A DNA stretch of 64,000 nt, taken from assembly GCA_016779705.1 (NCBI GenBank), contig JADHNB010000001.1:1434-65433 (forward strand), read 5' to 3'. The notes beneath the pieces were generated by a model that saw only the letters and a list, made by a program, of their open reading frames with translations, was not told the origin of the DNA and searched no databases. Origin of the DNA: Poseidonia sp. Its GTDB lineage: Archaea; Thermoplasmatota; Poseidoniia; Poseidoniales; Poseidoniaceae. The first letter of the stretch is position 1, and each line of letters opens with the position of its first letter. The translations under genes and the position numbers were made by a program. Below are positions 7,643 to 47,346 of this stretch, one piece after another.

Positions 7643-7654
7643 CCGGATTCCCAA

Positions 7655-7669
7655 CGAGAGCGGTGCTCT
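7655..7669. terminator. Perfect hairpin GAGAGC-GGT-GCTCTC between convergent metH and crtB; candidate bidirectional terminator.
   Basis: 6-bp inverted repeat with 3-nt loop read directly; followed by a T-containing stretch. Confidence 0.3.
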
Positions 7670-7679
7670 CTGTGCTTGT

Positions 7680-8672: not shown

Positions 8673-8683
8673 GGCGGGACACC

Positions 8684-10297
8684 TCAGGCAGATGTTGGGG
8701 TTCCGCTGGAGGGTTCTTTTGAGGTTTTGTTGACCGCCGCACGGCCTTGCTTGGACCGCTTTCGGCTTTCGAACCACGTGTCAACCCCGTTCCAATCCGG
8801 GATGATGCCCAAACTGTCCAACAAGAGTTTGCTGCTGATGCGTGCCGACTCGTAGATGACCGGCAAACCGCTGCCGGGGTGGGTGCCGCCGCCGACGAGG
8901 TAGAGGTTGTTGATCTCGTCAAACTGGTTCTTTGGTCGTCGCCACAGCATCTGGTCGAGGCCGTGGGCGAGGTTGAAGACGGCACCGCGGTAGCAGTGGT
9001 CGCCCCAATCCTCGGGGGTGATGATCATCTCCGTCACGATGTGGTCACGGATGTTTTCGAAGCCCAGTTTGGATTCGATTTGGTCCAAGATTCGGTCTCG
9101 ATAGGCGTCCTTTTCTTTGGACCAGTCAATGTTCTCGTGGACGTGGGACACCGGGACGAGGGCGTAAACGGTTGAGCACCCTTCTGGGGCGAGTTGCGGG
9201 TCGGTCACGCATGCATTCTGGACGTAGACCGACGGGTCGTCCCAGGTGATTTGGTGGTGTTTTTCGATGTCTTCGAGGTTTTTCTCGTAGGTGGCGGACG
9301 CGTAAATTTGGTGGTGTGGCAGGTGGTCGTAGGTGCGGTCAACGCCGAGGTAAAGCATGAACGTTGAACAGGAATACTTCTTCTTGTCCAGCTTCTTGTT
9401 GTTCCACTTCTTTCGAACGTTATCGGGGAAGAGTTGGGTCATGCCGTTAGCGAAATCAGCGTTCATGATGACGCGGTCGGCGAAAAATTCCCCTTCTTTG
9501 GTCCGCAAGCCTTTGATGGTCTTGCCCTCCATGATGACCGATTCCACGGCTTCGTTCATGCGGAAGGTGACGCCCAACTCCTTGGCGATGCTCGCCATTT
9601 TTTCGCTCACGCTGCCCAAACCACCCATGGGGTGGAAGATGCCGTATTCGTACTCAAGGAACGCCAGCATGGTGAACAAACTGGGGCAGTTGAACGGCGA
9701 CATGCCGAGGTACTTCGTCTGGAAGGACATGGCCAACATCAACCGGTCGTCATCAAAGAGTTTCATCAAATCGCCCGCCACCGAGCGCTGTGGACGCAAC
9801 ACACCGGCCACGCGCATGGCTCGCTTCGAGAGAAGGTCGCTTGGTCCGTACCACGGTTCTTGCAAGCATGCCTTGGATTTCTCGAGTTTGATCCGGTTGT
9901 CGACCACATAGCGTCGGAAAGCATCGGCGTTTTTTGGGCCGGACAACGCACCGATACGCTCGGTCATTTCGTCGAGGTCGCTGGTGCAATCCAATTGGCC
10001 ACCTTGACCGAAGATGAGGCGGTAGTTCATGTCCAGTTTGTGGAGGTTCAACGCCTCGTGAGCGTCGTGGCCAACCGCTTTGAAGATGTCTTCAATCACT
10101 TCGGGGTAGTGGAAAAAGGTGGGCCCAAGGTCAAACTTGAAGCCGTCTCGGTCGAACACTTTGTTGCGCCCACCCACCGCTGAGGAGCGTTCGAAAACGG
10201 TTACTTGAACGCCGGCTTTGGCGAGGAGAAGGGCTGAGGCGAGACCACCGGGGCCTGCTCCGATGATGGCGACGGACGGTGCAGTGCTGCTGGGCAT
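8684..10297 (-). CDS. crtI: Phytoene desaturase family FAD-dependent oxidoreductase
   Basis: N-terminal FAD dinucleotide-binding fold VAIIGAGPGGLASALLLAKAGVQVTVFERSSAVGGR. Size about 535 aa. Immediately upstream of crtB. Start chosen at the Met about 27 nt downstream of a TATA box. Confidence 0.8.
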   Translation of the reverse strand: MPSSTAPSVAIIGAGPGGLASALLLAKAGVQVTVFERSSAVGGRNKVFDRDGFKFDLGPTFFHYPEVIEDIFKAVGHDAHEALNLHKLDMNYRLIFGQGGQLDCTSDLDEMTERIGALSGPKNADAFRRYVVDNRIKLEKSKACLQEPWYGPSDLLSKRAMRVAGVLRPQRSVAGDLMKLFDDDRLMLAMSFQTKYLGMSPFNCPSLFTMLAFLEYEYGIFHPMGGLGSVSEKMASIAKELGVTFRMNEAVESVIMEGKTIKGLRTKEGEFFADRVIMNADFANGMTQLFPDNVRKKWNNKKLDKKKYSCSTFMLYLGVDRTYDHLPHHQIYASATYEKNLEDIEKHHQITWDDPSVYVQNACVTDPQLAPEGCSTVYALVPVSHVHENIDWSKEKDAYRDRILDQIESKLGFENIRDHIVTEMIITPEDWGDHCYRGAVFNLAHGLDQMLWRRPKNQFDEINNLYLVGGGTHPGSGLPVIYESARISSKLLLDSLGIIPDWNGVDTWFESRKRSKQGRAAVNKTSKEPSSGTPTSA

Positions 10298-10318
10298 GCT
10301 TCGCATGGGAGGTCAAGA

Positions 10319-20224: not shown

Positions 20225-21521
20225 AGGCCATCGTTCTTTCTCGACGTCGGTGCTTGTGTTGCTGCTTTTGACGACGGCGGCTCCCTTGGTTTCCGTTTCG
20301 GGGGAGCTGACCGCCGAGGAACGCCTTGCGGAGCGAGGCCTGACCGTTCTTGCCCTTCGAAACGACACCATCGACACCGACCAAGACGGCGACATCGATG
20401 CGGTCCGCGTCGTGGTGGTGCTCAACTCAACGGCGTCCCAAAACGACCTCATCGTGAAACTCCGCGGTCTTCACAAGGAACGAGAGGTGCTTGAGGTCAC
20501 CGAAGTTTCGTTTTCCATCCAAACCAACATCACGCTCGTTTACGATGCCTGGTCAAGAGGCGAACATCGCCTTCGCTTGGATTTCTTTGACGACGACGGC
20601 GAATTCATCGCTTCGTATCCGCTGCCAAACTTTGTCTTAGTGCCCGCCCTTCAGGTGCCGACGGTTCAACTCAACTTGAACGCCGGCGCCACCTTGCAAA
20701 CCGGTGAGGCGTGTGAGGTCGTTCGTGTGTTTAGCGACGAAACCGGTCCACGTTACGGGGAAAGCGGGACACGAACCTTCACTGGAGCCCCCTTCAGCGT
20801 CCTTGATGCGCATGGAACGCTGGATTGTTCGTCGTGGCCTGCCGGCGACTATGCCCTGCGAGAAACGTACCGCAACGGGCTTGGGCAAACCGCCGAAGCC
20901 ACCCTGAATTTCACCATCACCAACCGCCCGGCCCCCCAATTCACCATCGCTGTTTCCGGTCACGGTAACACCACCAACACACCCTGCAGTCTTGCGATGA
21001 AAACGGCCGGAGTCGATGCGGGATGGACCAAGGTTTGGCGAGTCAAAGGGGCGGTTGTTGAAGGCGCTAACACGTCCACGCTGGATTGTTCACAACTACC
21101 AGCTGGAGCCTACCTCGTCACGTTGGAGGTCATCAACGACAAGATGATCACCTCAACGGAGGGCGTCAATCTCATTCGCATGCCTTCTCCAGAGGCGACG
21201 CTCAACCGTACTCAAACGGGCCCCTCGGCCTCCTTGGGCGAAGACACGCCAACCGAATCCGTCGGTTGGCTGTCCATTGGGGTGCTGGCCTTGCTGGTCA
21301 CGTTGGTGGTCTTCGTGGCGATGGCTCGAGACCGTCGCCTCGAACCCCTTGAACTCCCGGCCTTGGGCCCGATTGCACAAGTGTTGCCTGATGGGAGTCC
21401 TGACACCATGGGCCTGCCCACCATCACGGATGACCAAGGCGTGTTGTGGCGCAAGCACCCCGACGGTCGGTTGGACTGGTGGGACAGCGAGTGGCAAGTT
21501 TGGCACGGGTGGGACGCATGA
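20208..21521 (+). CDS. Secreted/surface glycoprotein-like protein with N-terminal signal peptide, many N-x-S/T sequons, C-terminal TM helix and a Trp-rich tail.
   Basis: Signal MKKVREGHRSFSTSVLVLLLLTTAAPLVSVSG. Sequons NDT, NST, NIT, NFT, NTT, NTS, NRT. TM WLSIGVLALLVTLVVFVAMA. Overlaps the upstream gene by 17 nt. Confidence 0.5.
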   Translation: MKKVREGHRSFSTSVLVLLLLTTAAPLVSVSGELTAEERLAERGLTVLALRNDTIDTDQDGDIDAVRVVVVLNSTASQNDLIVKLRGLHKEREVLEVTEVSFSIQTNITLVYDAWSRGEHRLRLDFFDDDGEFIASYPLPNFVLVPALQVPTVQLNLNAGATLQTGEACEVVRVFSDETGPRYGESGTRTFTGAPFSVLDAHGTLDCSSWPAGDYALRETYRNGLGQTAEATLNFTITNRPAPQFTIAVSGHGNTTNTPCSLAMKTAGVDAGWTKVWRVKGAVVEGANTSTLDCSQLPAGAYLVTLEVINDKMITSTEGVNLIRMPSPEATLNRTQTGPSASLGEDTPTESVGWLSIGVLALLVTLVVFVAMARDRRLEPLELPALGPIAQVLPDGSPDTMGLPTITDDQGVLWRKHPDGRLDWWDSEWQVWHGWDA

Positions 21522-22396
21522 GTCCGTTGGAAGCGTTGGGTGTGGGCTTTGGCGCCTTGGGGTTGCTCGTTGGCATGCGCCTTTTCTACGTCTGGCGAAC
21601 CCGCATCCGACCCCTTCAACCCTCCTTGGATTTGGAGTGGGCGGTGGATTGCGAGCACCTCACCACCGCCACGGTCGACGGCAACGACATCACGTTTCAC
21701 ATGGTACGAGATTTCACGTGGCGGACCACGCGTGACCGTGACGAAAACTGGGCCGAGTCGGTCCATGTCCGCCTTGATGAATTGAAGGACGTGTGGTTCA
21801 TCGTCGACCACTTTCATGCGTTGAAAGGCCTCGCTCACACCTACCTCACCTTTGAATTCGAAGACGGAACTTGCTTGTCCTTCTCCTTCGAGACCCGGCG
21901 TGAAAAAGGCGAGCGATACCATCCTTGGGACGGGTTGTGGCGAGCCTACGAACTCTACTTGCTGGTCGGCTTCGAGCGCGACGTCACCGGTTTGCGGACC
22001 CACGGTCGCAGAAACAAGGATTACATGTTCAGGGCCATCACCCCTCCTGGCAAGGACAAGGACTTGCTCATGGGGCTGATCGGCAAGCTGAATCAACTCG
22101 CCGTCGAGCCCGAGTGGTACCATTCCTTGCTGACGACTTGCAACACCTCCATTGTTCGCATTGTCAATCAGGTCACCCCGGGACGCATCCCGTTCCTCTG
22201 GCGAAATTTCTTACCGGGCTACACCCCAAAAGCGGCGTTCAAACTGAAACTGATCGAGGATTGGGGCGGTCTTGAACAAACCCTCGCTTCAGCCAGAATC
22301 GACGAACGCGCTCAGGCATGGGACGGGGAAGAGGATTACTCCGCTATGCTTCGCTCCTTCCTTCCGTCATCGCCGAAGAGCGAGGATGCACCATAA
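21518..22396 (+). CDS. Membrane-anchored DUF4105-like protein
   Basis: N-terminal TM (LGVGFGALGLLVGMRLFYVW), then a region resembling DUF4105 (LTFEFEDGTCLSFSFETRREKGERYHPWDGLWRAYELYLLVGFERDV). ATGA overlap with the upstream gene. Family assignment is from memory, not a search. Confidence 0.4.
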   Translation: MSPLEALGVGFGALGLLVGMRLFYVWRTRIRPLQPSLDLEWAVDCEHLTTATVDGNDITFHMVRDFTWRTTRDRDENWAESVHVRLDELKDVWFIVDHFHALKGLAHTYLTFEFEDGTCLSFSFETRREKGERYHPWDGLWRAYELYLLVGFERDVTGLRTHGRRNKDYMFRAITPPGKDKDLLMGLIGKLNQLAVEPEWYHSLLTTCNTSIVRIVNQVTPGRIPFLWRNFLPGYTPKAAFKLKLIEDWGGLEQTLASARIDERAQAWDGEEDYSAMLRSFLPSSPKSEDAP

Positions 22397-23003
22397 GCAA
22401 ACGGCCTTCGGAGAACTCAACTTCAACCCTGGAGCCCAATGAACGGTTGTGAAGACCGTGCGACCCTGTCTCCAAGGCGGTCTTGTCCATCGGATAGGCA
22501 CACCCCGTGAGGGTGATGTTGTTGGCAAACGGGACGGCGAACAGGGAGAACGTTTGGTGCGGCTCCATCTCTATAGAATAGGCCTCTCCGGGACGAAAAA
22601 ACCGGAAAACATGGGTTGAGGTCAGCGATTGGAGGTCCATCTCCTGTTCTGCGCACACCAGCATGTTAGCCCAAGCGTGTTGCGGGTCACCGTCGTGAAC
22701 ACCGACCAAAACGCCTTTCGAGGCGCCTCTCGCCTTCGCCAGCTTGAGGGCTTTGGAGAGGTCGTTGGTGTTTGGGTCCCTGACCTCCACCACCTCACCC
22801 CCTCCTCGAGCGAAGGTCGCAAGGATCTCGGGCTCCACACTGTCCAGGTCCCCGACCACGGCATCAACGTGAATGCCAAGCTCAACGCACCGGTTGAGGG
22901 CACCGTCGCAAGCCAACGTGAAATCCACCTGGTTTTGCAGTTCTCGAATCGTCGCTGGCTCGCACCATGGGCCGTTGGCGAGGATGAGCCCAACGCGCCC
23001 GGT
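22344..23003 (-). CDS. Thiamine pyrophosphokinase
   Basis: TPK catalytic motifs VVGDLDSV (GDxDS) and DPNTNDLSKAL (DxxxTDxxKAL). Start chosen at the internal Met (MTGRVGLILANG). Confidence 0.6.
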   Translation of the reverse strand, partial: TGRVGLILANGPWCEPATIRELQNQVDFTLACDGALNRCVELGIHVDAVVGDLDSVEPEILATFARGGGEVVEVRDPNTNDLSKALKLAKARGASKGVLVGVHDGDPQHAWANMLVCAEQEMDLQSLTSTHVFRFFRPGEAYSIEMEPHQTFSLFAVPFANNITLTGCAYPMDKTALETGSHGLHNRSLGSRVEVEFSEGRLLMVHPRSSAMTEGRSEA

Positions 23004-23054
23004 CATGCTGAGGCCTAGCCGCACGTCTTTCTCAAGGCAACGGTGAACGCGTCC

Positions 23055-23073
23055 TGACCCCCGTAGGGGGTCA
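23055..23073. promoter_or_regulatory. Perfect GC-rich hairpin/palindrome TGACCCCC-GTA-GGGGGTCA in the divergent region, about 50 nt upstream of the giant gene start.
   Basis: 8-bp inverted repeat with 3-nt loop, read directly. Confidence 0.3.
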
Positions 23074-23121
23074 ACGCCTGAATCAACAATGATTTTCAAG
23101 GTCGGAGGCTGTGAGGCGTCC

Positions 23122-26100
23122 ATGTCGGACGCCGATACGCAATCGTTTCACATCAAAAGCGTTCTGCTGGTGCTTCTGTTTCTGCTGTCCATCGCCAGCC
23201 CAATCGTCCCTGCATACGGGCCGTCTGAGGTCCTCGAGCAAGCCTCTCCATCGGCTCGCATGGCGCCGTTTAACCTCGCTTCTGGCTACGGCCATGAACT
23301 GGCCGGGACGACGGTGACCGTTGACGGCCTCGACAACGCCTTGGTGAGGGAGGAATCGATGTTTGACTACTGGATCACCACCGAACTCAACAACTCCAGC
23401 ACCGAGCATCACGGCACTCCCGACATGAAACTCACCCGGGCTGACATGGAGCACTACTGCTGGTCGACCGAAGAAGGGTCCATCCGAACCGCCATTCACC
23501 GCCCGAATGGGGCATGGAGCACGACCTTGGTTGACACCGTTGCCGCCACGAATACCTCATCGTTGGTTGATTGCGCCATTGCCGTGACGGGGAACGAGCT
23601 TCCTCGGGTGCTTTATGCAGACGGTGCTGACCTGAAAATGGGGCGGTACGCACGCGAGAGCGCCACGTATTACGACGGGCCACGTTGGCACACTCGGACC
23701 ATCATGGAGAATGTTGAGCCAACCCACCTTGAACTTGAAATCACGCCTGAAGGCGTGGAGTGGGGCTTGATGCGCACGGTGGACGGTGCCTTGCACCAAG
23801 TGAACTTCAGCGGGGCGTACTGGACCTCCTTCCTGCTGGATGTTGGCCCCATAGGGGACGATTTCGAATTGGCCATGGATGACAACGGCACCGCTCACGT
23901 TCTCTACACGCGTTCCAACGCCCAAGAAGTCGTGCTCCTGCGCGTCAGCGGCATGGAACGTGACGTCCGGATTCTCGAGCGAAACAGCGACCTGGTGGAC
24001 GCTTTGGGCATGGACCTTGATGCCAATGCCGTCGAGCAAATCGCCACCGCCACGCAAACCGGGCCGTCGTTTTCCATCAACCTCATTCGTTCGCTCGCTG
24101 GGCAAGACGCCGGACGTGTTGACCCCGTCCCCCTGGATGGACGAGAAGGCGTTGAAGATGAAGAAGAAGGTTCGTTGTTGATGGCGGATTTCAACAACGA
24201 CGGCTTTGATGATTTGGCCATCGCCACCCCCACCGCTGACCTCGTTGGTTTTACCGACAACGGCCGAGTGGACGTTTACTTCGGTTCTTCCGCAGGGCTG
24301 AGTGCGACGCCCGATGCCATCCTCGCCGGCGCCAACGACAACGCCCGATTCGGTCAAGGCTTGGATGCCGGGGATTACAACCACGACGGCATCGTTGATT
24401 TGGCCGTTGGCTCCCCTGGTTGGCAACCAACCGGTCAAACCGATCTTCACAACGGCCAGGTGAGCGTTCATCTTGGCGGGCCCTCTGGCCTTCAATCCAC
24501 ACCATGGTGGACCGCGAACGGTTCGGAAAACGAATCGCTAGGGGCTGTCCTGACCACCTTGGAGCGAACCTCAGAAGCCGACGGATTGGCTGCGGCGGCC
24601 CACGGCTACACGCTCGAAGTGAGCGAATCTCAAACCAACGTCGGCAAGGTGGTGCTGTACGGCGGTGGAACCGATGCGATGGCCATGGAGCGAAACCTCA
24701 CTCAATCCAAGTCCGGACCGATGTTTGGCCGCTCGTTGGAAGGCTGCGATATCAACGGTGACGGTTTGGATGAGTTGATCGTGGGCAACACGGGAACTTT
24801 TGCCAGTTCCCTGGGCTATTCGTCGATCGAGTACTACTACGGCAACGCCTCCGGCTACGCAGGAACCCCCGAGCACACGCTTGAATCGCTCTCCCAGGGT
24901 CGTCTGTTTGGCCACAACATCGTCTGCGCTGGCGACCTCAACGGTGACGGGTACAACGAACACCTGTTGACCGAACCGTTCAACAGCACGCAAACCGTGT
25001 TTGGCACCGGTGTCTTGTGGCTCTACAACGGCACCTCCGGTTCGCTCCCTTCCGAAGCGGACTGGAAATACTTCCCCAGCATCGGCAATCAAAAAATCGG
25101 CGAAGCCATTTCACCTGCAGGCGACATCAACGAGGATGGGTACGATGACCTCTACATGAGCAGCCAAATGGGGTCGAAAGCCGGCCGATTGGAGATTTTC
25201 CTCGGTTCAGCTAACGGATTGCGGTCCGACAAACAGTTGCTGGCCGATGGAAACGGGTCCGAACAACTCGGCTTCCGCCTCGCCAGCAACGGCGACCTCA
25301 ACGGCGACGGTTTGAGTGAAGTGGTCTTTTCCCAGAGGACCTTCGAACGAGGCGACGCCTTTGCGCTCAATTACGTGATCCTCTCCGAGCGAGATTGGGA
25401 ATCCATTTCGTTTGAGTACACCGGGTCCATCTCCGCCCTGGACCTCGCCACGGCGGCACGAGGCGAGACCAGCATGGCGTTCGTTCATCAGGACAGCCTC
25501 CGTTCGTACGTTGGAAAACTGGAGCACATGAACGACGGCACTCCCTCCGGTCAATGGGTTCATCAAACCGTTGAACGCACCACCACGTCGAACGTCACCG
25601 TTGAATTTGGCGTTCGTTCCTCGGGCCAACCCTTGGTGGTCGTTGAGGACGACGCTTCGATCCGTTTGCATTCAACCACTTCCATGACCGCCGTCCAACA
25701 AGAGGTGGCGACCACCGGGACCATGGGTCAATTTATCGGTTCGAACGTCAACCAAGATAACGAACAAGTTCTTGCTTACACTTCGGGGGCCGGCAATCAA
25801 ATCTTTGCAACCGAGCAATCTTCAACGGGCTGGTCGACCGATTTGGTGCGGACCAACGCCGCGTTGGCCAACGGCATTGAAGTGCTCTTTGACAGCGCCG
25901 ACGTCCCTCGTTTGGTTTACCGCCACAACACCACGAGCCAACTTGAGATGGCGGTCGGTGGGAGCAGTTGGTCCCTGACGCCCTTGGGCAATGCAGGGGA
26001 CGCCGTTTCGTTGCAACACCCCGCGGTGATGCTTGCCAACGACACCCTCGCCGTGGCCCTCCTCTCCTCCAACGGAAGCGCCACCAACCTTGCCCTGTGG

Positions 26101-29100
26101 ATGCATGACGGCACCGCACTCAGCGAACAAATCATCGCCAACGCCAGCGATGTCGAGGCTGAACTCGGTCTCGCGGTGCTGGCCAACGGCTCATTGCTCG
26201 TGGCTTCGCTGAATCAGTCAGGCGCACTCCGGTTGTATGAACAGTGGCCCGGTGACACCGCTTGGCAAACCCACACCCTCGTTCAGCCCAGCGGCACCAA
26301 CGGGGAGTATCGTCTCGATCTTGAGGGCGGCACAACGCCCGTCTTGGCGGTTCGTGCCAACGCCGTCTCCTCCATCTTGATGCCCAACGGCACCGGCGAG
26401 TGGAAGGCCGTTGCGGAGCGTCCAGCGGCGGCTCACGACGGGGCGTGGGACGTTTTGGTGGTCAACGACCATCTCTTGTTGTTGACCAGTGATGAAAGCA
26501 CCCATCAACTGACCGTGAACACGCTTGAACTCAGCAGCGTTCAGCAAAGTTACTCTCCTTGGATGTCGGCCAAGTTTGGTGACGTCCTCGTCACTCACAA
26601 AGTGGATGCTGCATTCGACACGAACGGCACGGTGCACATGGGGTACTGGGACGAGGTTGACAACGACGCTCTTTTGTTGCGACTTTACGTTGACCAAGAC
26701 CGGGACCTCGTGTTTGACCTGATGGACGACCTGCCCACGGTGGGCAACCAATGGGCGAACAGTGACGGCGACAATTTCGGTGACAACCCGCTGGGGCCGC
26801 TGCCGGACCAATGCCCCACCGTGGCTGGGCTTTCGTCCTACATCATCTTTGGATGCGTTGATTACGACACCGATGGTTTCACCGACAGCATTGACGGATG
26901 CGATTCCCAAGGCGGGACGTCATGGATTGACCGATTTGGATGCGAAGACCTCGACCAAGACGGATGGTCCGACAACGGCGCCACCTACTACGGAGGTGAC
27001 GTGTACAAAGGAAACTGGAAGCAGGCCCTTGATACCGACGGCGACGGCTTCGGCGATAATCACGGCGTTGATTGCTGTTCAACGGTTCTCGACCCCAACG
27101 CTGGACCCGGTGACCTGTTCCCGTACTTGGCCTCCCAATACGCCGATTACGACGGTGACGGGTTCGGTGACAACGACACCGACGCCGTGCACGGAGACTT
27201 CTGTCCCTGGGATTACGGTGAATCGTGGCGAGACCGAAACGGATGTTTGGACTCGGACGGCGACGGTGCAAGCGATCCGTCTGCTGAAGGGACCTTCTTC
27301 GAGTGGAACACCAGCCGAGGGGCGGATGTTTGGCCCTTTGACGCCACACAGTGGAAGGACACGGACGGCGACGGCTACGGTGACAACCAATCGGAGAATG
27401 CGACGTCTCCCGACCGCTTCCCGCAACGCATTGTGGCGGCCAACGACACCGACGGCGACGGCTTCCCGGACAATTGGACCGCCTTTGCCTCGCTCGACGA
27501 TGACGGGGACGGGGTGCAAAACCTCGACGACCGTTGCGTGGATTCCGACGCCGCCTTGGCCATCGACGCCGAGGGCTGCGACACGGACCAAGTGGCCAAC
27601 ACCACGTTCCCGAGAACCTCATACAAAGCCGGGCTTGAACTTGACCAATGCCCCGAAGAATGGGGCAACTCCAGCCTCCCGGTCAAAGGCTGTCTTGATT
27701 CCGACGGTGACGGCTACACCGACCAATACACCTACACGGTGAACGAGACGACGGGGCTGCGAGAAGGCCAAACCGGCGATGCCTTCCCCTTCATCAAATC
27801 GCAAGTTCAAGACACCGACGGTGACGGATTTGGCGACAATCCCGCCGGCGAACAAGGCGACCAGTGTCCCTTTGAACCCGGTGTACTCAACGGCACCGAA
27901 GGGGTCGGCTGCCGCCTCATCGATGTCAACGACGACGATGGCGACGGGGTCATCAACGACGTGGATGTCCTGTGCCCGAACAGTCCGTTGGGCGAGCCGG
28001 TGAACGAGGAGGGTTGTGCTCAATCCGAACTTGACGATGACGATGACGGCGTCAAGAACAACGCCGACCTCTGTGCAAATTCCCCGGTCGCAACAGCCGT
28101 GGACGAGGATGGATGCACCAACGAACAGCGAACCTCCGACTCTGACGGGGACGGATTGAACGACCCTCAAGACCGCTGTCCTGGAACCGAGGCGGGTGCT
28201 GATGTTGATGAGAACGGTTGCTCTCAAGGGCAACGAGACAGCGACGGGGACGGTCTCTCCGACCTTGACGATGCCTGCGACGATACCCCGCCTGGTTTCC
28301 CCATTCTCGCCAACGGTTGCACCGACGAGAGCGCTCTCACCGTCGATCTTGACGGTGATGGATATGCAGGCCTCTACACCTACGACCTCGACCCGGACAC
28401 GGGGCTTCACGTCAATCAAACGGGCGATGCCTTCCCCAGTGACCCCACCCAATGGTTTGACCGGGACGGCGACGGCTACGGTGACAACAGCGATGGTACC
28501 AATGCAGACCATTGCCCCGACGAAAACGGGACGTCCTACATCGATTTCCTGGGTTGTTACGACGACGGTGACGGTTGGAGCGATGCCAATGAACCCGAAG
28601 CCTTGCGAGGCAATCCAACCCAATGGAAAGACACGGATTTCGATGGTTTCGGGGACAATTGGGGCGACCCCGCATGGACGGCCCTGCGAGATCCGTCATG
28701 GCCCGGAGAGTTTGTTGAAGGGGCCACCAACGCCGACTTTTGTCCCAAAACGACCTTTGGCTTGCAAGTCGATGACGAAGGTTGCCATCCCTCCGAACGA
28801 GATTCGGATTTGGACGGCGTGATGGACGATTCCGACAACTGCCCCGACGACCCCAAAGGCGTGGACGGTTACGAAGACGGTTGCCCCTACATTCCTTTAT
28901 CCGGCGACGGCGATGAGGGCCTGTTCGGCGTTGATGCTGGCACGCTCATGGTCATCGCTGGCGGCGGCGTCTTGGGCATCTTGGTCTTGATGTTGGTGGT
29001 GCGCCTTGCGCGGAGGGGAGGTGGTGACGACGAGGACGACGACGATTACGACGACTTTTTCGACGAAGACAACGAAGAAGAGAGTTTCCTCGACACGTTG

Positions 29101-29595
29101 GACGCCAAGCGGGCTGCACCAACCCGGGCTCGTCCATCGGCCAATCAACGGGCTTCTGCCCCCTCCGGTCGCGGCCCCAGCGCCGGGCCCTCAACCCCCG
29201 GACCCGGGGGTCCTCCAAAGCGAAGCGGTGCCGGTCCTCCTCAACGCGGAGCAGGCGGTCCGCCCCAACGTGGCCCCGGAGGCCCACCTCGTTCTTCGGA
29301 TGAACCGCCCCGTCAATCCTCGTCGGCCTCCGCACAAAAAGTTGCGAAGAAGAAGTCCGTGACGGCGGTCGACGAGAGCCCTTCAGCCAAGGTTCGTAAA
29401 GCGAAGATCCAAGTTGACCTCTCCATCTTTGAAGACTGGCAAGCTGACGACCGTGAGTCGGCCGTTGATTGGGTCGTGGGCGCCTTCGGCGACGGTGACG
29501 AAGAGCGTACCGTGCTCATGCAATTGCAAGAAACAGGGTGGACCGCTGAACAATCTCGGGCCATTTGCAACCTTGCGAAGAACAAAGGGGCTTGA
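23122..29595 (+). CDS. Giant cell-surface protein (about 2157 aa). Order of parts: signal peptide, N-terminal region, FG-GAP/integrin-alpha-like beta-propeller repeats, long beta-rich middle, about 25 TSP3-like Ca-binding repeats, TM anchor, acidic plus Pro/Gly-rich cytoplasmic tail.
   Basis: Signal MSDADTQSFHIKSVLLVLLFLLSIASPIVPAYG. FG-GAP motifs (DFNNDGFDDLAIATP, GDYNHDGIVDLAVGSP, CDINGDGLDELIVGN, GDLNGDGYNEHLL, GDINEDGYDDLYMSS, NGDLNGDGLSEVVFSQ). TSP3-like units (DTDGDGFGDN, DSDGDGLNDPQDRCP, etc.). TM LMVIAGGGVLGILVLMLVV. Tail DDEDDDDYDDFFDEDNEEE and PGPGGPPKRSGAGPPQRGAGGPPQRGPGGPP. Confidence 0.8.
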   Translation: MSDADTQSFHIKSVLLVLLFLLSIASPIVPAYGPSEVLEQASPSARMAPFNLASGYGHELAGTTVTVDGLDNALVREESMFDYWITTELNNSSTEHHGTPDMKLTRADMEHYCWSTEEGSIRTAIHRPNGAWSTTLVDTVAATNTSSLVDCAIAVTGNELPRVLYADGADLKMGRYARESATYYDGPRWHTRTIMENVEPTHLELEITPEGVEWGLMRTVDGALHQVNFSGAYWTSFLLDVGPIGDDFELAMDDNGTAHVLYTRSNAQEVVLLRVSGMERDVRILERNSDLVDALGMDLDANAVEQIATATQTGPSFSINLIRSLAGQDAGRVDPVPLDGREGVEDEEEGSLLMADFNNDGFDDLAIATPTADLVGFTDNGRVDVYFGSSAGLSATPDAILAGANDNARFGQGLDAGDYNHDGIVDLAVGSPGWQPTGQTDLHNGQVSVHLGGPSGLQSTPWWTANGSENESLGAVLTTLERTSEADGLAAAAHGYTLEVSESQTNVGKVVLYGGGTDAMAMERNLTQSKSGPMFGRSLEGCDINGDGLDELIVGNTGTFASSLGYSSIEYYYGNASGYAGTPEHTLESLSQGRLFGHNIVCAGDLNGDGYNEHLLTEPFNSTQTVFGTGVLWLYNGTSGSLPSEADWKYFPSIGNQKIGEAISPAGDINEDGYDDLYMSSQMGSKAGRLEIFLGSANGLRSDKQLLADGNGSEQLGFRLASNGDLNGDGLSEVVFSQRTFERGDAFALNYVILSERDWESISFEYTGSISALDLATAARGETSMAFVHQDSLRSYVGKLEHMNDGTPSGQWVHQTVERTTTSNVTVEFGVRSSGQPLVVVEDDASIRLHSTTSMTAVQQEVATTGTMGQFIGSNVNQDNEQVLAYTSGAGNQIFATEQSSTGWSTDLVRTNAALANGIEVLFDSADVPRLVYRHNTTSQLEMAVGGSSWSLTPLGNAGDAVSLQHPAVMLANDTLAVALLSSNGSATNLALWMHDGTALSEQIIANASDVEAELGLAVLANGSLLVASLNQSGALRLYEQWPGDTAWQTHTLVQPSGTNGEYRLDLEGGTTPVLAVRANAVSSILMPNGTGEWKAVAERPAAAHDGAWDVLVVNDHLLLLTSDESTHQLTVNTLELSSVQQSYSPWMSAKFGDVLVTHKVDAAFDTNGTVHMGYWDEVDNDALLLRLYVDQDRDLVFDLMDDLPTVGNQWANSDGDNFGDNPLGPLPDQCPTVAGLSSYIIFGCVDYDTDGFTDSIDGCDSQGGTSWIDRFGCEDLDQDGWSDNGATYYGGDVYKGNWKQALDTDGDGFGDNHGVDCCSTVLDPNAGPGDLFPYLASQYADYDGDGFGDNDTDAVHGDFCPWDYGESWRDRNGCLDSDGDGASDPSAEGTFFEWNTSRGADVWPFDATQWKDTDGDGYGDNQSENATSPDRFPQRIVAANDTDGDGFPDNWTAFASLDDDGDGVQNLDDRCVDSDAALAIDAEGCDTDQVANTTFPRTSYKAGLELDQCPEEWGNSSLPVKGCLDSDGDGYTDQYTYTVNETTGLREGQTGDAFPFIKSQVQDTDGDGFGDNPAGEQGDQCPFEPGVLNGTEGVGCRLIDVNDDDGDGVINDVDVLCPNSPLGEPVNEEGCAQSELDDDDDGVKNNADLCANSPVATAVDEDGCTNEQRTSDSDGDGLNDPQDRCPGTEAGADVDENGCSQGQRDSDGDGLSDLDDACDDTPPGFPILANGCTDESALTVDLDGDGYAGLYTYDLDPDTGLHVNQTGDAFPSDPTQWFDRDGDGYGDNSDGTNADHCPDENGTSYIDFLGCYDDGDGWSDANEPEALRGNPTQWKDTDFDGFGDNWGDPAWTALRDPSWPGEFVEGATNADFCPKTTFGLQVDDEGCHPSERDSDLDGVMDDSDNCPDDPKGVDGYEDGCPYIPLSGDGDEGLFGVDAGTLMVIAGGGVLGILVLMLVVRLARRGGGDDEDDDDYDDFFDEDNEEESFLDTLDAKRAAPTRARPSANQRASAPSGRGPSAGPSTPGPGGPPKRSGAGPPQRGAGGPPQRGPGGPPRSSDEPPRQSSSASAQKVAKKKSVTAVDESPSAKVRKAKIQVDLSIFEDWQADDRESAVDWVVGAFGDGDEERTVLMQLQETGWTAEQSRAICNLAKNKGA

Positions 29596-29652
29596 CAACC
29601 GTCGTGAGGGCTTAAATGACGAGCAGGTTTGGGCGGAAGAGGAGAGAGATGC

Positions 29653-31158
29653 ATGGTGGATGAACCCTCATCAAATTCTCCCACCATTGAAGTCGATGAA
29701 GCCGCGGCTTACTTCGGCGTTACCGAATCCTCCGACGTGCTTCACGCCATGATGGCCATGCCAAGGGAACAAGCCATGATTCAGTTCTTTGAGTTGCTCT
29801 CCGACATCGTTCTTCGCCCCGGTGACTTTGACTTTGAAGCGGCCAGCGAGCGGATGCAATGCGAAGGCGGCGAGATCTACTATCTCGTTGCCGGTCACCT
29901 CGGTCTGATGAGCATGCCCGACCCGATTCTGCAAGCCTTGGGCATGCCCGATTCGAATGGAGAGGCCTCCGGTTCAGCCGTCGGTTCCATGGATGAACAG
30001 CAACGGGAAGCGTTGACGTCGATGGCCGACCCCATGCGGATGATGAAACTCTTCGCCGTGGCCCAGCAAACGGGTGGAAGTGCGGAAGTGCAAACCTACC
30101 TCTCAACCCTTGAAGGCCTCCTTGCCGATGTCGGCTCGTCCATCCCTGCGTTGGCCACGGTCCATCGGGAGTTGGACGCGGCGCTCGATGTCGCCGGTCA
30201 TGTGCTGCCCATCGCTTCGCTGGCCAGCGGTGCAGCTTCCGCAGCTTCGGTTGACGTCCCTGAGACCGTGGCCCTCCCCGAAGCGCCTCCCGAACCTGAA
30301 CCGGAACCTGCGGCAGCGCTGGAAACCACGCCTTCCCCTTCACCGGCCCAAGACCGCGTACCGTTGCCAGGGCAGGCAGCGGTCGCAGCGCCTCCGTCCG
30401 AGGAACCCACGGAATCAATCCCCCTACCCTCCGCTTTGGTGGCCTTACCCGACGTTGCCAAAGAAGCCGAATCCGAACCCGTGATCAACGTGGAGAACGA
30501 CCGGGAAGTGGCCAGAGCCACCCAAGATGCCTTCGCTGGAGCCTTCAGTTCTCAACTTGAACCCAAGCCCGTGGTCCAACCACCTGAACCCCCCGCCGAA
30601 CCCCCTGAAGAGGAAGAGTTCGTCAGCGCCGCCGAGCACTTCATCGCCGCCGATGAAGACGGCAGCGGTGCCTTGGACGTTGAAGAACTCGCCCGTGCGA
30701 CCGGGACCTCCATTGAAGAGGCCACCGAACTCCATGCTCAAGCCGACATCGACGGTGACGGAGTGGTCTCCCTCTCCGAGTTTATCGCCTCACCAGCGGC
30801 GGAGAAGACCGCTGGTCTGCCCAAACCCGTCGCCCCCGTCCGCCGCCCCTTGGGCCAGCCCGGCCAGGCCGCTGCACCACCCAATCCAGTGCAGCAGCGC
30901 CCGCAACCGCTTCAACCGTCATCGCACCCTCCAATGGGTCAGCAACCCATGCAGCCTCAAGGCTGGCAACAACAACCTCTGCAGGATCCTCAAAGCTGGC
31001 AACAACAGCCCATGCAACCCCAGGGTTGGCAGCAACCCCAACGACCGTTGGTCCAGCCCACCATTCGTTCAGGTATCCACTGTCGGGGTTGCGGCATCGG
31101 TTTGGACCCGTATTGGAGATTTTGTCCCGTTTGCGGGCAGCAAAACCTCGGATACTGA
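29653..31158 (+). CDS. Acidic protein with an EF-hand pair, a Pro/Gln-rich low-complexity repeat and a C-terminal zinc ribbon.
   Basis: Canonical EF loops DEDGSGALDVEE and DIDGDGVVSLSE. Repeat QQPMQPQGWQQQPLQDPQSWQQQPMQPQGWQQPQ. Zn ribbon CRGCGIGLDPYWRFCPVCGQ. Start ambiguous (29629 or 29653). Confidence 0.6.
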   Translation: MVDEPSSNSPTIEVDEAAAYFGVTESSDVLHAMMAMPREQAMIQFFELLSDIVLRPGDFDFEAASERMQCEGGEIYYLVAGHLGLMSMPDPILQALGMPDSNGEASGSAVGSMDEQQREALTSMADPMRMMKLFAVAQQTGGSAEVQTYLSTLEGLLADVGSSIPALATVHRELDAALDVAGHVLPIASLASGAASAASVDVPETVALPEAPPEPEPEPAAALETTPSPSPAQDRVPLPGQAAVAAPPSEEPTESIPLPSALVALPDVAKEAESEPVINVENDREVARATQDAFAGAFSSQLEPKPVVQPPEPPAEPPEEEEFVSAAEHFIAADEDGSGALDVEELARATGTSIEEATELHAQADIDGDGVVSLSEFIASPAAEKTAGLPKPVAPVRRPLGQPGQAAAPPNPVQQRPQPLQPSSHPPMGQQPMQPQGWQQQPLQDPQSWQQQPMQPQGWQQPQRPLVQPTIRSGIHCRGCGIGLDPYWRFCPVCGQQNLGY

Positions 31159-32382
31159 TCAATCAACGGCGAACTTCCCGTCTTCAAGCAAGAGTGATTC
31201 ATCAAGCCAAATGCTCGGTGTGGCCAAAACACCCGAAATTTGGATACCCACGGCCGCCGTCCCTCCAAGGGTGGTGTTGTCGCCGATGGAGAAGTACGCC
31301 GTACCGAGTCGCTTTTCGTCTTCGAGGACGTTGCCAAGGAGTCGAGCGTTGGGGTTCATGCCGAACCCGAACTCGGCCACGGTCCACACGTTTTCCTGTT
31401 CTTTGCTCTTCAGCCGCTTCGCCGCTTCTCCGAAGGTTTGTCGGATTTGAGCGGCGGCCGTACCGCCTTTGACATCAACGACCAGCCCCTTCTCGACCTG
31501 CAGAAGAACGGGCTCATCCACGAGAGCCGAATCCCATGAGCCGTCGATGACGATGGTCCCGTTCATGGTCCCTTCTCGGGGCAAGGTGAAAATTTTGCCC
31601 GCAGGGAGGTTGGTCAACATGCGGGGCCGGTTGCACACACCGTTGTCATCAAGTTTCCATTCCCTCCAGTTGACTTCAAAGGTCACGTTGGTGCCTGACT
31701 CGGATTTGACGTTCACAATCCGCTTTCGCCGAAGCATGCTGTTCATTTCGCCGATGTTTTTCTTGATGATGTTGAAGTCTGCGGACATGCCACCTTCGGT
31801 GAACATCTCCAAGGTCATTCCGGGCATGGTAGCCACCCTTGCTCCGTCCTTGATGGCCTGGCGAACGGCACGGGTGTGGGTGAGCGAATACTTCGTCGGG
31901 GCGATGACCACCTGCTGTTGACGCATCAAGTTCGACACCGGGGCTGGGGGTTCTTCGCCGTGGTGACGTCCCTTGGGCATCACGATGAGCAACACCCGGT
32001 CAGAGCGAAGGCTCGCAGCATCGTGAAGCGCTTGGCCGATTTCGGTGGTCGTGGGGTCACAAACGATGAGAATGTTTTCTCCACGACGAAGGTCCATGCA
32101 AGTGTCGATGACGGTGAGGGCGCTCTTGGCCATTTTTTCCTCATGACCAACCTCAAGTTCCTCCCCGTCCGATTCCTGGTCCAGTTCTCGGTCCATCGTC
32201 ACCGGTTCTGGCTCCCCCTCGGCGAGGTCGACCACCTGTTCAATGTCCGCATCAACGAGGTCTTCATCCTCGCCGTCTGAGCCTTTTCGGCGAAACGGGA
32301 GGACCATGGTAGCGGTAGAGTTCAACCGTTCTTCAATGTGTGCTTTTTTGTCTTGAAATCCGTTCAGTTTACGCCGAACCAA
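31159..32382 (-). CDS. Aminopeptidase, M29 (thermophilic metalloprotease/AmpS-like) family; the acidic N-terminal region may be a mis-called extension.
   Basis: C-terminal AEFGFGMNPNARLLGNVLEDEKRLGTAYFSIGDN resembles the M29 metal-binding core. N-terminal 70 aa are strongly acidic, so the true start is uncertain. Confidence 0.55.
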   Translation of the reverse strand: MVRRKLNGFQDKKAHIEERLNSTATMVLPFRRKGSDGEDEDLVDADIEQVVDLAEGEPEPVTMDRELDQESDGEELEVGHEEKMAKSALTVIDTCMDLRRGENILIVCDPTTTEIGQALHDAASLRSDRVLLIVMPKGRHHGEEPPAPVSNLMRQQQVVIAPTKYSLTHTRAVRQAIKDGARVATMPGMTLEMFTEGGMSADFNIIKKNIGEMNSMLRRKRIVNVKSESGTNVTFEVNWREWKLDDNGVCNRPRMLTNLPAGKIFTLPREGTMNGTIVIDGSWDSALVDEPVLLQVEKGLVVDVKGGTAAAQIRQTFGEAAKRLKSKEQENVWTVAEFGFGMNPNARLLGNVLEDEKRLGTAYFSIGDNTTLGGTAAVGIQISGVLATPSIWLDESLLLEDGKFAVD

Positions 32383-38225: not shown

Positions 38226-38301
38226 TGGTGGGTCAGGCCGGACTTGAACCAGCGACCTCGGCATCTTCAGTGCCGCGCTCTCCCAACTAAGCTACTGACC
38301 C
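38226..38301 (-). tRNA. tRNA-Phe (anticodon GAA), CCA encoded, G37 in anticodon loop
   Basis: Reverse complement folds as GGGTCAG-T-A-GCTT-AGTTGGGA-GAGC-G-CGGCA-CTGAAGA-TGCCG-AGGTC-GCTGG-TTCAAGT-CCGGC-CTGACCC-A-CCA. Seven-bp acceptor, GTTC-like T-loop. Confidence 0.9.
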
Positions 38302-47273: not shown

Positions 47274-47346
47274 AGTCCCTTAGTGTAGCGGTCCATCATG
47301 GAGGATTCTGGTTCCTCCGACCTCGGTTCGAATCCGGGAGGGACTA
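47274..47346 (+). tRNA. tRNA-Gln (anticodon CUG), no encoded CCA
   Basis: AGTCCCT-T-A-GTGT-AGCGGTCCA-TCAT-G-GAGGA-TTCTGGT-TCCTC-CGAC-CTCGG-TTCGAAT-CCGGG-AGGGACT-A. Cloverleaf with 7-bp acceptor and anticodon loop UUCUGGU. Confidence 0.9.

What the first reader, a model, noticed from the sequence alone, without database searches (positions are those of the whole stretch)
29629..31158. EF-hand pair, PQ-rich repeat and Zn-ribbon protein encoded directly after the giant Ca-binding adhesin
Two textbook 12-residue EF loops (DEDGSGALDVEE at about 30652-30690; DIDGDGVVSLSE at about 30748-30783) in an otherwise acidic, low-complexity protein. A degenerate QQPMQPQGWQQ repeat and a C-terminal four-Cys ribbon (CRGC...CPVC, about 31081-31140) follow. 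It has no signal peptide or TM, so it is predicted cytoplasmic. It could be a Ca sensor/partner for the cytoplasmic tail of the neighbouring giant protein, or an unrelated Ca-buffer.
Basis: partly seen in the sequence, partly recalled or inferred. Interest (0 to 1): 0.6.

Follow-up and report, generated by a model that had tools for sequence, protein, structure and literature searches.

The report
Order-wide archaeal EF-hand/zinc-ribbon scaffold protein
This is a real, strongly conserved gene of Marine Group II archaea (Poseidoniales) for a mostly disordered cytoplasmic protein: an unclassified helical head, a calmodulin-like calcium-binding pair and a zinc-ribbon tail. Its function is unknown, and its proposed link to the giant surface protein next door is plausible but unproven.

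Summary
A 501-aa gene (ATG 29653 to 31158, + strand) encodes two canonical EF loops, a threefold 11-aa Q/P/W repeat and a C-terminal CxxC-x10-CxxC ribbon. It has no signal peptide or TM segment.

- Residues ~12-200 are not low-complexity. They form a confidently predicted all-alpha domain (pLDDT >90) that matched nothing in Pfam, NCBIfam, PDB sequences, PDB folds or BFVD.
- The EF pair is an accessory module. Relatives occur only in Poseidoniales (277 GTDB species genomes). The invariant core is the N-domain, a Pro-rich disordered linker, an LPKPVxPVRxP motif and the Zn ribbon. Many Thalassarchaeaceae-type members lack EF hands.

The block TPK(-)/giant(+)/this gene(+)/NicX-M29(-) is conserved in both families. 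EF-less orthologs also sit next to giants. Four deep lineages have the gene with no giant next to it.

My best reading (confidence 0.4) is a cytoplasmic scaffold/adaptor, Ca2+-switchable where EF hands are present, that probably engages the giant's conserved cytoplasmic C-terminal domain. Frozen synteny is almost as likely. This is an uncharacterised family built partly from known modules. Interest is moderate.

The parts
29653..31158 (+). Coding sequence of the EF-hand/Zn-ribbon protein (501 aa). The mechanical ORF starts at TTG 29629.
   Evidence: ORF. 527 homologs with E <= 1e-3, with the top hits 99-54% identical and of the same length, starting MxDE. SD-like GAGGAG at 29639-29644.
29611..29618 (+). 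Conserved cTTAAATg element (TATA-box-like) in the 57-nt spacer, about 40 nt upstream of the ATG. Candidate own promoter.
   Evidence: The motif '(g/t)cttaaatg' or 'gttaaatg' sits at the same distance in the window and in L001, L005, L007, L010, L012, L013, L019 and L021. Its function is inferred, not shown.
29686..29718 (+). N-terminal peptide IEVDEAAAYFG (aa 12-22). It is the most conserved stretch of the family but is modelled as flexible.
   Evidence: I12, V14, D15, Y20, F21 and G22 are invariant across 24-48 diverse members. pLDDT is 51-66 there.
29734..30252 (+). All-alpha domain with no match in any library searched (aa ~28-200; includes CEGGEIYYL at aa 70-78).
   Evidence: AF2 mean pLDDT 89.8, pTM 0.82, 9 helices. 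No hit in Pfam, PDB sequences, PDB Foldseek (best E 0.26, TM 0.2) or BFVD.
30253..30627 (+). Acidic Pro/Ala/Glu-rich disordered linker 1 (aa 201-325), with VPLP motifs and the VARATQDAFAGAF helix motif (aa 286-298, nt 30508-30546).
   Evidence: pLDDT 45-57 except for a short helix at 283-291. pI 4.05, 27 Pro. The xAF motif is conserved in both families and absent in three giant-less members.
30628..30816 (+). EF-hand pair (aa 326-388). Loops at 30652-30687 and 30745-30780.
30817..30855 (+). LPKPVAPVRRPLG motif (aa 389-401; contains PxxPxR). Conserved even in EF-less members.
   Evidence: P395 is invariant; R397 and P399 are at least 90% conserved.
30943..31036 (+). Threefold 11-aa Q/P/W repeat (QPMQPQGWQQ-like) inside basic disordered linker 2 (aa 389-470).
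   Evidence: TRF period 33, 3.0 copies, 73% matches. The segment has pI 12, 24 Gln, 22 Pro and 3 Trp. W438 and W459 are invariant and W449 nearly invariant (>=90%) in Poseidoniaceae.
31063..31143 (+). C-terminal zinc ribbon (aa 471-497). Cys ligands at 31081-31134.
   Evidence: CxxC-x10-CxxC with C477, C480, C491 and C494 at least 90% conserved order-wide. pLDDT 79-86. DZR E 1.5e-4, below the Pfam cut-off.
23089..29595 (+). Upstream giant surface protein (2168 aa): signal/TM, FG-GAP propeller, TSP3-like Ca repeats, TM at ~aa 1953-1971, and a ~200-aa cytoplasmic tail.
   Evidence: Pfam FG-GAP E 4.9e-19; TSP_3 weak. Hydropathy peaks at aa 22 and 1953. Orthologs of 2000-2150 aa (one ORF reads 2320 aa) across the order.
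29368..29592 (+). Conserved cytoplasmic C-terminal domain of the giant (last 75 aa; ERTxLxxLQExGWxAxQSRxI). Candidate docking site.
   Evidence: Conservation is 0.66 against 0.33-0.38 for the rest of the tail. It is recognisable in Thalassarchaeaceae-type loci L086 and L091. No Pfam family.
31159..32382 (-). Convergent neighbour, an M29/NicX-like protein. Its stop codon abuts this gene's stop codon.
   Evidence: Pfam Peptidase_M29 E 1.9e-8. PF26233 NicX on orthologs. Present in nearly all loci but absent in L096.
22344..23123 (-). Thiamin pyrophosphokinase gene, the upstream border of the conserved block. It sits directly next to this gene where the giant is absent.
   Evidence: Pfam TPK_catalytic E 2e-16. 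Synteny.

Best explanation
The gene encodes a cytoplasmic, beads-on-a-string scaffold/adaptor protein that was found only in Poseidoniales.

**Shown:**
- The modules, in order:
  1. a conserved N-terminal peptide;
  2. a 170-aa all-alpha domain;
  3. about 125 aa of acidic disordered linker with short conserved motifs;
  4. a calmodulin-lobe-like EF-hand pair;
  5. a PxxPxR-type motif;
  6. a basic Q/P/W repeat;
  7. a four-Cys zinc ribbon.
- The N-domain, linker, LPKPV motif and ribbon are kept in every lineage. The EF pair is present in Poseidoniaceae and only some Thalassarchaeaceae-type members.

**Inferred:**
- The two terminal modules and the linker motifs are protein-binding sites held together by a flexible tether.
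- Where the EF pair is present, Ca2+ binding changes the linker's conformation or exposes a hydrophobic cleft, making the scaffold Ca2+-responsive.
- The most likely client is the cytoplasmic tail of the adjacent giant FG-GAP/TSP3 surface protein. That tail's last ~60 residues are as conserved as its extracellular Ca repeats.
- The protein would then couple this envelope protein to something inside the cell.
For: - **Architecture and conservation:**
- **EF pair:**
- **Cytoplasmic location and charge polarity:** the first 388 aa have pI ~4.05 and the last 113 aa are basic (linker 2 pI 12, ribbon 8.5).
- **Narrow family:** only 97 representatives among 1.84e9 clusters at 50% identity. 277 GTDB species genomes encode a relative; the 80 loci kept are all titled Poseidonia/Poseidoniaceae/Poseidoniales or carry only generic archaeal titles, and none names another order.
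- **Adjacency to the giant:** same strand, directly downstream, with spacers of about 36-250 nt.
  - It holds in all 80 Poseidoniaceae loci wherever the upstream flank is available.
  - It holds in the Thalassarchaeaceae-type loci L086, L091, L093/94 and L095, although synteny further downstream has changed.
- **Giant's tail:** the C-terminal domain is conserved order-wide.
- **Linker motif:** an acidic-xAF motif is present in all giant-linked members and missing from 3 of 4 giant-less ones.
Against: - No interaction was tested.
- Four deep lineages keep all core modules with no giant next to the gene.
- TPK and NicX/M29, which have no obvious functional link, are equally or more constant neighbours.
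- A conserved TATA-like element in the spacer suggests independent transcription.
- The mirror-tree signal is not specific. The partial r of the N-domain with the giant's tail is 0.56, against 0.60-0.62 with its extracellular parts.
- The giant's Ca repeats are extracellular and the EF pair is cytoplasmic, so the shared 'calcium theme' is not a mechanistic link.
- The xAF/giant correlation rests on a single phylogenetic contrast.
Confidence: 0.4

Rival explanations
1. The architecture is the same, but the protein has nothing to do with the giant. It is a general cytoplasmic scaffold or regulator of Poseidoniales, for example for division, envelope biogenesis or some other housekeeping process. 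Its position after the giant reflects a slowly rearranging, tightly packed region.
For: - The gene persists with all core modules where the giant is absent.
- TPK(-) and NicX(-) neighbours are conserved just as well, and gene ends abut or overlap, which disfavours breakpoints.
- The spacer has its own promoter-like element.
- The mirror-tree signal is non-specific.
Against: - Same-strand adjacency to the giant survives in both families while downstream genes (M32, MoCF and others) were reshuffled.
- The giant's conserved cytoplasmic domain needs a partner, and this is the only nearby candidate.
Confidence: 0.35
2. It is a nucleic-acid-binding regulator. The C-terminal zinc ribbon and the basic Q/P-rich segment bind DNA or RNA, and the N-domain senses a ligand.
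For: - The basic C-terminal 113 aa include a four-Cys ribbon.
- The top, non-significant Foldseek hits of the N-domain are TetR-type regulators.
Against: - The Foldseek hits are meaningless (E > 0.2, TM ~0.2, rmsd 13-14 A).
- No HTH or other DNA-binding family was detected.
- About 40% of the protein is disordered Pro-rich linker, which is atypical for such regulators.
Confidence: 0.1
3. It is a simple cytoplasmic Ca2+ buffer.
For: Two canonical, conserved EF loops in an acidic protein.
Against: - There are only two sites in 501 residues.
- The EF pair has been lost or was never present in many family members, while the other modules are invariant.
Confidence: 0.05

Closest known systems
Calmodulin / troponin C single lobe (EF-hand pair; Pfam PF13499, PF00036, PF13202)
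   Same: - Two canonical 12-residue loops spaced 19 residues apart.
- The helix-loop-helix pair is modelled at pLDDT ~90.
- It is 36-38% identical to CaM lobes over 58 aa at about 2 A rmsd.
   Different: - There is only one lobe, embedded in the middle of a 500-aa, largely disordered protein.
- It is flanked by an unclassified N-domain and a Zn ribbon.
- The lobe is dispensable in many orthologs.
CIB1 (calcium- and integrin-binding protein 1), an EF-hand protein that binds the integrin alpha-IIb cytoplasmic tail. This analogy is from my own knowledge and was not tested.
   Same: The concept is the same: a cytoplasmic EF-hand protein paired with a single-pass membrane protein whose ectodomain is an FG-GAP (integrin-alpha-type) propeller.
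   Different: - There is no homology beyond the EF-hand.
- CIB1 is a compact four-EF-hand protein.
- Here, binding is only inferred from gene adjacency, and EF-less orthologs keep that adjacency.
Adaptors built from disordered, motif-bearing regions plus terminal zinc modules or P/Q-rich linkers (e.g. paxillin with LD motifs and LIM domains; ZipA/FtsK P/Q linkers). This analogy is from my own knowledge.
   Same: The layout matches: short conserved motifs in long Pro/Gln-rich disordered segments, with a small Cys4 zinc module at the C-terminus.
   Different: - No sequence or fold relationship.
- The ribbon is a single zinc_ribbon_2/DZR-like knuckle pair, not a LIM domain.
- A JGI 'MinC' label on one homolog (P0095) has no domain support.
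zinc_ribbon_2 / DZR small ribbons of bacteria and archaea (PF13240, PF12773)
   Same: The CxxCG-x9-FCxxCG signature. These are the best Pfam matches.
   Different: - Scores are below the Pfam gathering thresholds.
- The ribbon is C-terminal and is preceded by a family-specific PTIRSG motif.
Poseidoniaceae- and Thalassarchaeaceae-specific protein-family modules 'with calcium-binding domains' noted by Meheust et al. 2022 (PMC9258230)
   Same: Lineage-restricted hypothetical proteins of Poseidoniales with Ca-binding domains.
   Different: That paper gives only a one-sentence mention. It offers no architecture, neighbourhood or function for this family. I did not check whether this protein is in their modules.

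Membership tests
EF-hand (Pfam clan CL0220) | 12-residue loops with D1, D/N3, D/S/N5, G6, a hydrophobic residue at 8 and E12, in a pair | tested here: met
   The loops are DEDGSGALDVEE and DIDGDGVVSLSE. In 177 homologs D1 and E12 are 100% conserved and G6 is 94-95%.
EF-hand (Pfam clan CL0220) | HMM score above the curated threshold | tested here: met
   EF-hand_5 31.5 > 25.9 and EF-hand_1 26.5 > 25.4. The pair model EF-hand_7 is marginally below, 29.2 < 30. The family profile hits calmodulin in the PDB at E 2e-8.
EF-hand (Pfam clan CL0220) | Helix-loop-helix pair fold with a short beta bridge between the loops | tested here: met
   AF2 shows helices 326-333, 343-350, 354-364 and 374-379, with strands at 340-341 and 372-373, at pLDDT 88-93. 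Foldseek matches CaM/TnC lobes at rmsd ~2 A.
EF-hand (Pfam clan CL0220) | Binds Ca2+ | not testable with these tools
   Needs ITC, a 45Ca overlay or a structure.
Zinc ribbon (PF13240 Zn_Ribbon_1 / PF12773 DZR) | Two CxxC knuckles about 10 residues apart, conserved | tested here: met
   CRGC-x10-CPVC. All four Cys are at least 90% conserved across 48 diverse members. Modelled as beta hairpins at pLDDT 79-86.
Zinc ribbon (PF13240 Zn_Ribbon_1 / PF12773 DZR) | HMM score above the curated threshold | tested here: not met
   DZR 22.3 bits vs 27.3 and Zn_Ribbon_1 20.4 vs 25, with E 1.5e-4 and 4.4e-4 on the isolated 42 aa. It is therefore ribbon-like but not a certified family member.
MinC septum-site inhibitor (JGI label on homolog P0095) | MinC N- or C-terminal domain | tested here: not met
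   No MinC model hits the window protein at E <= 0.1. The precomputed Pfam domains of P0095 are EF-hand only.
Integrin-alpha-like receptor plus tail-binding EF-hand adaptor (CIB1-type pairing) | Neighbour has an FG-GAP propeller, a single TM and a cytoplasmic tail | tested here: met
   FG-GAP E 4.9e-19 over 5 stretches. TM at ~aa 1953-1971 followed by a ~200-aa tail.
Integrin-alpha-like receptor plus tail-binding EF-hand adaptor (CIB1-type pairing) | Physical binding of the EF-hand protein to the tail | not testable with these tools
   Only adjacency is available, plus a non-specific mirror-tree result.
Integrin-alpha-like receptor plus tail-binding EF-hand adaptor (CIB1-type pairing) | Strict co-occurrence of the two genes | tested here: inconclusive
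   The genes are adjacent in all 80 Poseidoniaceae loci wherever the upstream flank is available and in four Thalassarchaeaceae-type lineages. Four deep lineages lack an adjacent giant. Whole genomes could not be inspected.

The most novel reading that the evidence does not exclude
Poseidoniales have an integrin-like outside-in module. It consists of a giant FG-GAP/TSP3 Ca-binding surface protein and this dedicated adaptor. The giant's conserved cytoplasmic C-terminal domain would be docked by the adaptor through its N-peptide or N-domain, its acidic-xAF helix, or its basic ribbon end. In many lineages the adaptor carries a calmodulin-like Ca2+ switch. Together they would couple events at the cell surface to the cell interior in one of the ocean's most abundant, still uncultured archaea. 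The adaptor's head domain would be a new fold.
Probability: 0.25. Interest if true: 0.75.

Novelty: new variant of a known kind. Interest (0 to 1): 0.45.

Why it matters
Poseidoniales (Marine Group II) are among the most abundant archaea in the surface ocean. They have no cultured representative, so their cell biology is known only from genomes.

This protein is conserved across the order, yet its N-domain matches no Pfam or NCBIfam model, no PDB sequence or fold (Foldseek) and no BFVD model. It sits in a conserved block with the order's conserved giant surface protein.

If the two interact, this would be a rare prokaryotic example of a dedicated cytoplasmic adaptor, Ca2+-regulated in part of the order, for an integrin-type surface protein. 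It would also give a concrete handle on how these cells attach to particles or sense them.

If they do not interact, the finding is still a clean definition of a new lineage-specific protein family, with an EF-hand module that has been gained or lost repeatedly.

Tried and rejected
- **Sequence and profile searches of the N-domain.** Pfam on 30 members, NCBIfam and a PDB profile gave nothing credible.
- **Giant's tail against Pfam.** Nothing.
- **JGI 'MinC' label.** Rejected, because it has no domain support.
- **Read-through or fusion with the giant.** The two genes are in the same frame, and P0193 looks like a fusion. I rejected this because three in-frame TGA codons lie in the spacer, so P0193 is most simply a frameshift or assembly artefact.
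- **Overlapping ORFs** (29720-30418 on the minus strand; 30527-31450 in another + frame). These are treated as by-products of the 60% GC content, since conservation follows the 29653 frame.
- **Mirror-tree co-evolution on 64 loci.** No specific signal.
- **Paralogs of either end of the protein in the window.** None.
- **Literature.** The only mention is a passing one about Ca-binding lineage-specific families.
- **Rfam scan of the window.** Two tRNAs only, and nothing near the gene.
Full report

The mechanical ORF runs 29629..31158 on the + strand. The 120 best homologs are 468-540 aa long apart from two truncated entries. They begin MxDE at the position of ATG 29653. A GAGGAG Shine-Dalgarno-like element lies 8 nt upstream of that ATG. 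I therefore take 29653-31158 (501 aa) as the gene.

- **EF loops.** They lie at aa 334-345 (nt 30652-30687) and aa 365-376 (nt 30745-30780).
- **Pfam.** EF-hand_5 and EF-hand_1 pass their curated thresholds. The pair model EF-hand_7 misses by 0.8 bit.
- **PDB sequence match.** A profile of the family hits calmodulin and CDPK chains at E about 1e-8.
- **Loop conservation.** In 177 EF-bearing homologs, Asp1 and Glu12 are invariant and Gly6 is about 94% conserved in both loops.
- **Q/P/W repeat.** It is a true tandem repeat at the DNA level: a 33-nt unit in 3 copies at 30943-31036.
- **Zinc ribbon.** The CxxC-x10-CxxC motif is at nt 31081-31134. Its four Cys are at least 90% conserved over the whole family. 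Pfam ribbon models score below their cut-offs.
- **Location.** There is no TM segment or signal peptide; the Kyte-Doolittle 19-residue maximum is 1.41.

**2.

The first 200 residues are not low-complexity. They are the best conserved part of the protein. AlphaFold2, run on a 30-sequence alignment reaching down to 25% identity, gives a nine-helix domain with mean pLDDT 89.8 and pTM 0.82.

This domain matches nothing in any library I could search:
- Pfam and NCBIfam;
- PDB sequences searched with a profile;
- PDB folds by Foldseek, where the best hit has E 0.26, TM ~0.2 and rmsd 13-14 A;
- BFVD.

The most invariant stretch of all, IEVDEAAAYFG (aa 12-22), precedes the packed domain and is modelled as flexible. 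That is typical of a docking peptide.

The full-length model is a string of beads:

| Segment | Residues | Model confidence |
|---|---|---|
| N-domain | ~30-200 | pLDDT >90 |
| Linker 1 | 201-325 | about 50, with one short helix at 283-291 |
| EF pair | 326-387 | about 90 |
| Linker 2 | 389-470 | about 45-50 |
| Zn ribbon | 471-497 | about 80-86 |

The only PDB fold matches of the full model are calmodulin and troponin C lobes (58 aa, about 2 A, 36-38% identity). The protein is also electrostatically polar. The first 388 aa have pI about 4.05. The last 113 aa are basic, with linker 2 at pI 12.

**3. Who has it, and what is the core of the family?**

- **Organism.** NCBI names on homologs place the window in Poseidonia / Poseidoniaceae, that is Marine Group IIa.
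- **Breadth.** An exhaustive HMMER search with the N-domain found only 97 representatives among 1.84 billion clusters at 50% identity. A scan of one genome per GTDB species found relatives in 277 genomes. The 80 loci kept are titled Poseidonia, Poseidoniaceae or Poseidoniales, or carry only generic archaeal titles; none names another order.
- **Distant members.** At 25-37% identity they keep the N-peptide, the N-domain, a Pro-rich disordered linker, the LPKPVxPVRxP motif and the C-terminal ribbon. Many of them have no EF hands at all. Some of these are named Thalassarchaeaceae, that is MGIIb.
- **EF distribution.** On a neighbour-joining tree of the N-domain the EF pair is patchy. It is present in most Poseidoniaceae, absent in one nested clade (P0143/145/147), mostly absent in the Thalassarchaeaceae-type clade but present in a nested group (P0261/P0265), and absent in the deepest clade.
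- **EF origin.** The P0261/P0265 EF pair sits at the same place in the linker and is followed by the same AAEEKT-like tail. This favours one origin with repeated loss, but independent gain is not excluded.
- **Other inserts.** One deep lineage (P0168) instead has an extra internal zinc ribbon in the linker.

The EF pair is therefore an accessory module on an older scaffold, not the defining feature.

**4. Neighbourhood**

In the window the order is: TPK (22344-23123, -), the giant FG-GAP/TSP3 protein (23089-29595, +), this gene (+), and an M29/NicX-like protein (31159-32382, -).

- **Poseidoniaceae.** The same four-gene block is seen in every one of the 80 species loci wherever the flanks are available. 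It is also seen in metagenomic loci L001-L005.
- **Thalassarchaeaceae-type loci.** The block is kept in L086, L091, L093/94 (GCA_002497905.1) and L095, even though the genes further downstream differ from the window. Three of these four orthologs lack EF hands.
- **Deep lineages.** In L087, L088/89, L090 and L096, TPK is directly followed by this gene with no giant between them. In L096 NicX is missing too.
- **Placement of a giant-less lineage.** The M32 neighbour in L088 is 65% identical to Thalassarchaeum and Poseidoniales proteins, so at least that lineage still sits in or near the order.

The giant itself is a stable ortholog of about 2000-2150 aa across the order. The last ~60 residues of its ~200-aa cytoplasmic tail (ERTxLxxLQExGWxAxQSRxI) are as conserved as its Ca-binding repeats: 0.66 identity fraction against 0.33-0.38 for the rest of the tail. 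This tail domain has no Pfam family and no second copy in the window.

The 57-nt spacer contains three in-frame TGA codons, so there is no read-through. In the Poseidonia clade it also contains a conserved cTTAAATg element about 40 nt upstream of the ATG. This looks like an archaeal TATA box, so the gene may have its own promoter.

**5. How it most likely works**

*Shown.* The protein is a cytoplasmic multi-module protein. Its termini and several short linker motifs are under strong constraint, while the linkers themselves evolve freely in sequence but keep their composition.

*Inferred.* It is a scaffold or adaptor. The N-peptide and N-domain at one end, and the basic ribbon at the other, bind partners. 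The linker motifs (VPLP, acidic-xAF helix, PxxPxR-type LPKPVAPVR) recruit further partners. The EF pair, where present, makes the assembly Ca2+-responsive in the manner of a single calmodulin lobe.

The best candidate client is the giant's conserved cytoplasmic domain, for four reasons:
- The adjacency is same-strand and survives in both families.
- The giant's tail domain needs a partner.
- This protein has the right location.
- An acidic-xAF motif is found in the linker of every giant-linked member but is absent from three of the four giant-less ones.

I give this reading 0.4.

The main rival, at 0.35, is that the adjacency is frozen synteny:
- TPK and NicX are equally constant neighbours.
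- Gene ends in this block abut or overlap.
- The gene survives intact without an adjacent giant.
- The spacer has a promoter-like element.
- A mirror-tree test on 64 loci shows no specific co-evolution with the tail (partial r 0.56, against 0.60-0.62 with the giant's extracellular regions).

A nucleic-acid-binding regulator (0.1) and a plain Ca buffer (0.05) are less likely.

**6. Comparison with known systems**

- **EF pair.** By sequence, profile and predicted fold it is a member of the EF-hand superfamily. Ca2+ binding itself is untested.
- **Ribbon.** It is zinc_ribbon_2/DZR-like but below Pfam thresholds, so I describe it as ribbon-like rather than as a certified member.
- **N-domain.** It belongs to no described family.
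- **Functional analogies.** These come from my own knowledge and were not tested. CIB1 is an EF-hand protein that binds an integrin alpha tail. Paxillin or ZipA-type adaptors combine disordered, motif-bearing regions with a terminal binding module.
- **MinC label.** A JGI 'MinC' label on one homolog is unsupported.
- **Literature.** The only trace I found is one sentence noting Poseidoniaceae- and Thalassarchaeaceae-specific families with Ca-binding domains (PMC9258230).

**7. Verdict**

The gene defines an uncharacterised, order-restricted protein family built from an unclassified helical domain plus known small modules. I rate it as a new variant of a known kind.

Interest is moderate (0.45). 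The protein is universal in a globally abundant uncultured archaeal order, and it is a credible but unproven candidate partner for the order's conserved giant surface protein. No function is demonstrated, and the neighbourhood evidence is ambiguous.

Noticed in passing
window 29368-29592 (+): The last ~75 aa of the giant's cytoplasmic tail form a conserved domain, ERTxLxxLQExGWxAxQSRxI. It matches no Pfam family. It is among the most conserved parts of the 2168-aa protein and is recognisable in Thalassarchaeaceae-type giants.
   Followed up: partly
window 29611-29618 (+), in the spacer 29596-29652: A conserved cTTAAATg (TATA-box-like) element lies about 40 nt upstream of the ATG in the Poseidonia clade. 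Other clades have a different conserved spacer motif (catcatcctcaagaacc).
   Followed up: partly
window 30508-30546 (+); P0179, P0197, P0165: The acidic-xAF helix motif (VARATQDAFAGAF) is in the linker of all giant-linked family members checked. The linkers of three of the four giant-less members contain no [AQ]F dipeptide at all. Two of them (P0165, P0179) instead share a (L)(N/D)T(E/N)NW motif.
   Followed up: partly
L096 10001-11578 (P0168): This deep-lineage family member has a second, internal zinc ribbon (CVACGAFTPESQPNCTSC) inserted in the disordered linker. Its locus lacks both the giant and NicX.
   Followed up: no
P0193 (582 aa): A predicted protein joins a giant's TSP3 repeats, TM and tail to the start of this family's N-domain. 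It is most simply a frameshift or assembly artefact, and it shows the same adjacency in another lineage.
   Followed up: no
window 17708-20224 (+) and 20208-21521 (+): Two large ORFs (838 and 437 aa) upstream of TPK have no credible Pfam family. They are syntenic across the order, including the giant-less loci. The 784-aa counterpart in L088 shares TSP3-like repeats with the giant (tblastn to giant aa 1211-1906).
   Followed up: partly
window 31159-32382 (-): The M29/NicX-like gene ends exactly where this gene ends, with the two stop codons abutting. In L088 the two genes overlap by about 28 nt. The product carries a ~100-aa acidic N-terminal extension before the M29-like part.
   Followed up: no
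window 29720-30418 (-) and 30527-31450 (+, other frame): Long ORFs (232 and 307 aa) overlap the gene. There is no evidence that they are genes. They are probably a by-product of the ~60% GC content.
   Followed up: partly
window 38229-38301 (-) and 47274-47346 (+): Two tRNA genes are the only Rfam matches in the window.
   Followed up: no
window 3998-10306: A B12-dependent methionine synthase (1214 aa) is followed on the minus strand by phytoene synthase-like and amine-oxidase/desaturase-like genes. This is ordinary metabolism, unrelated to the finding.
   Followed up: no
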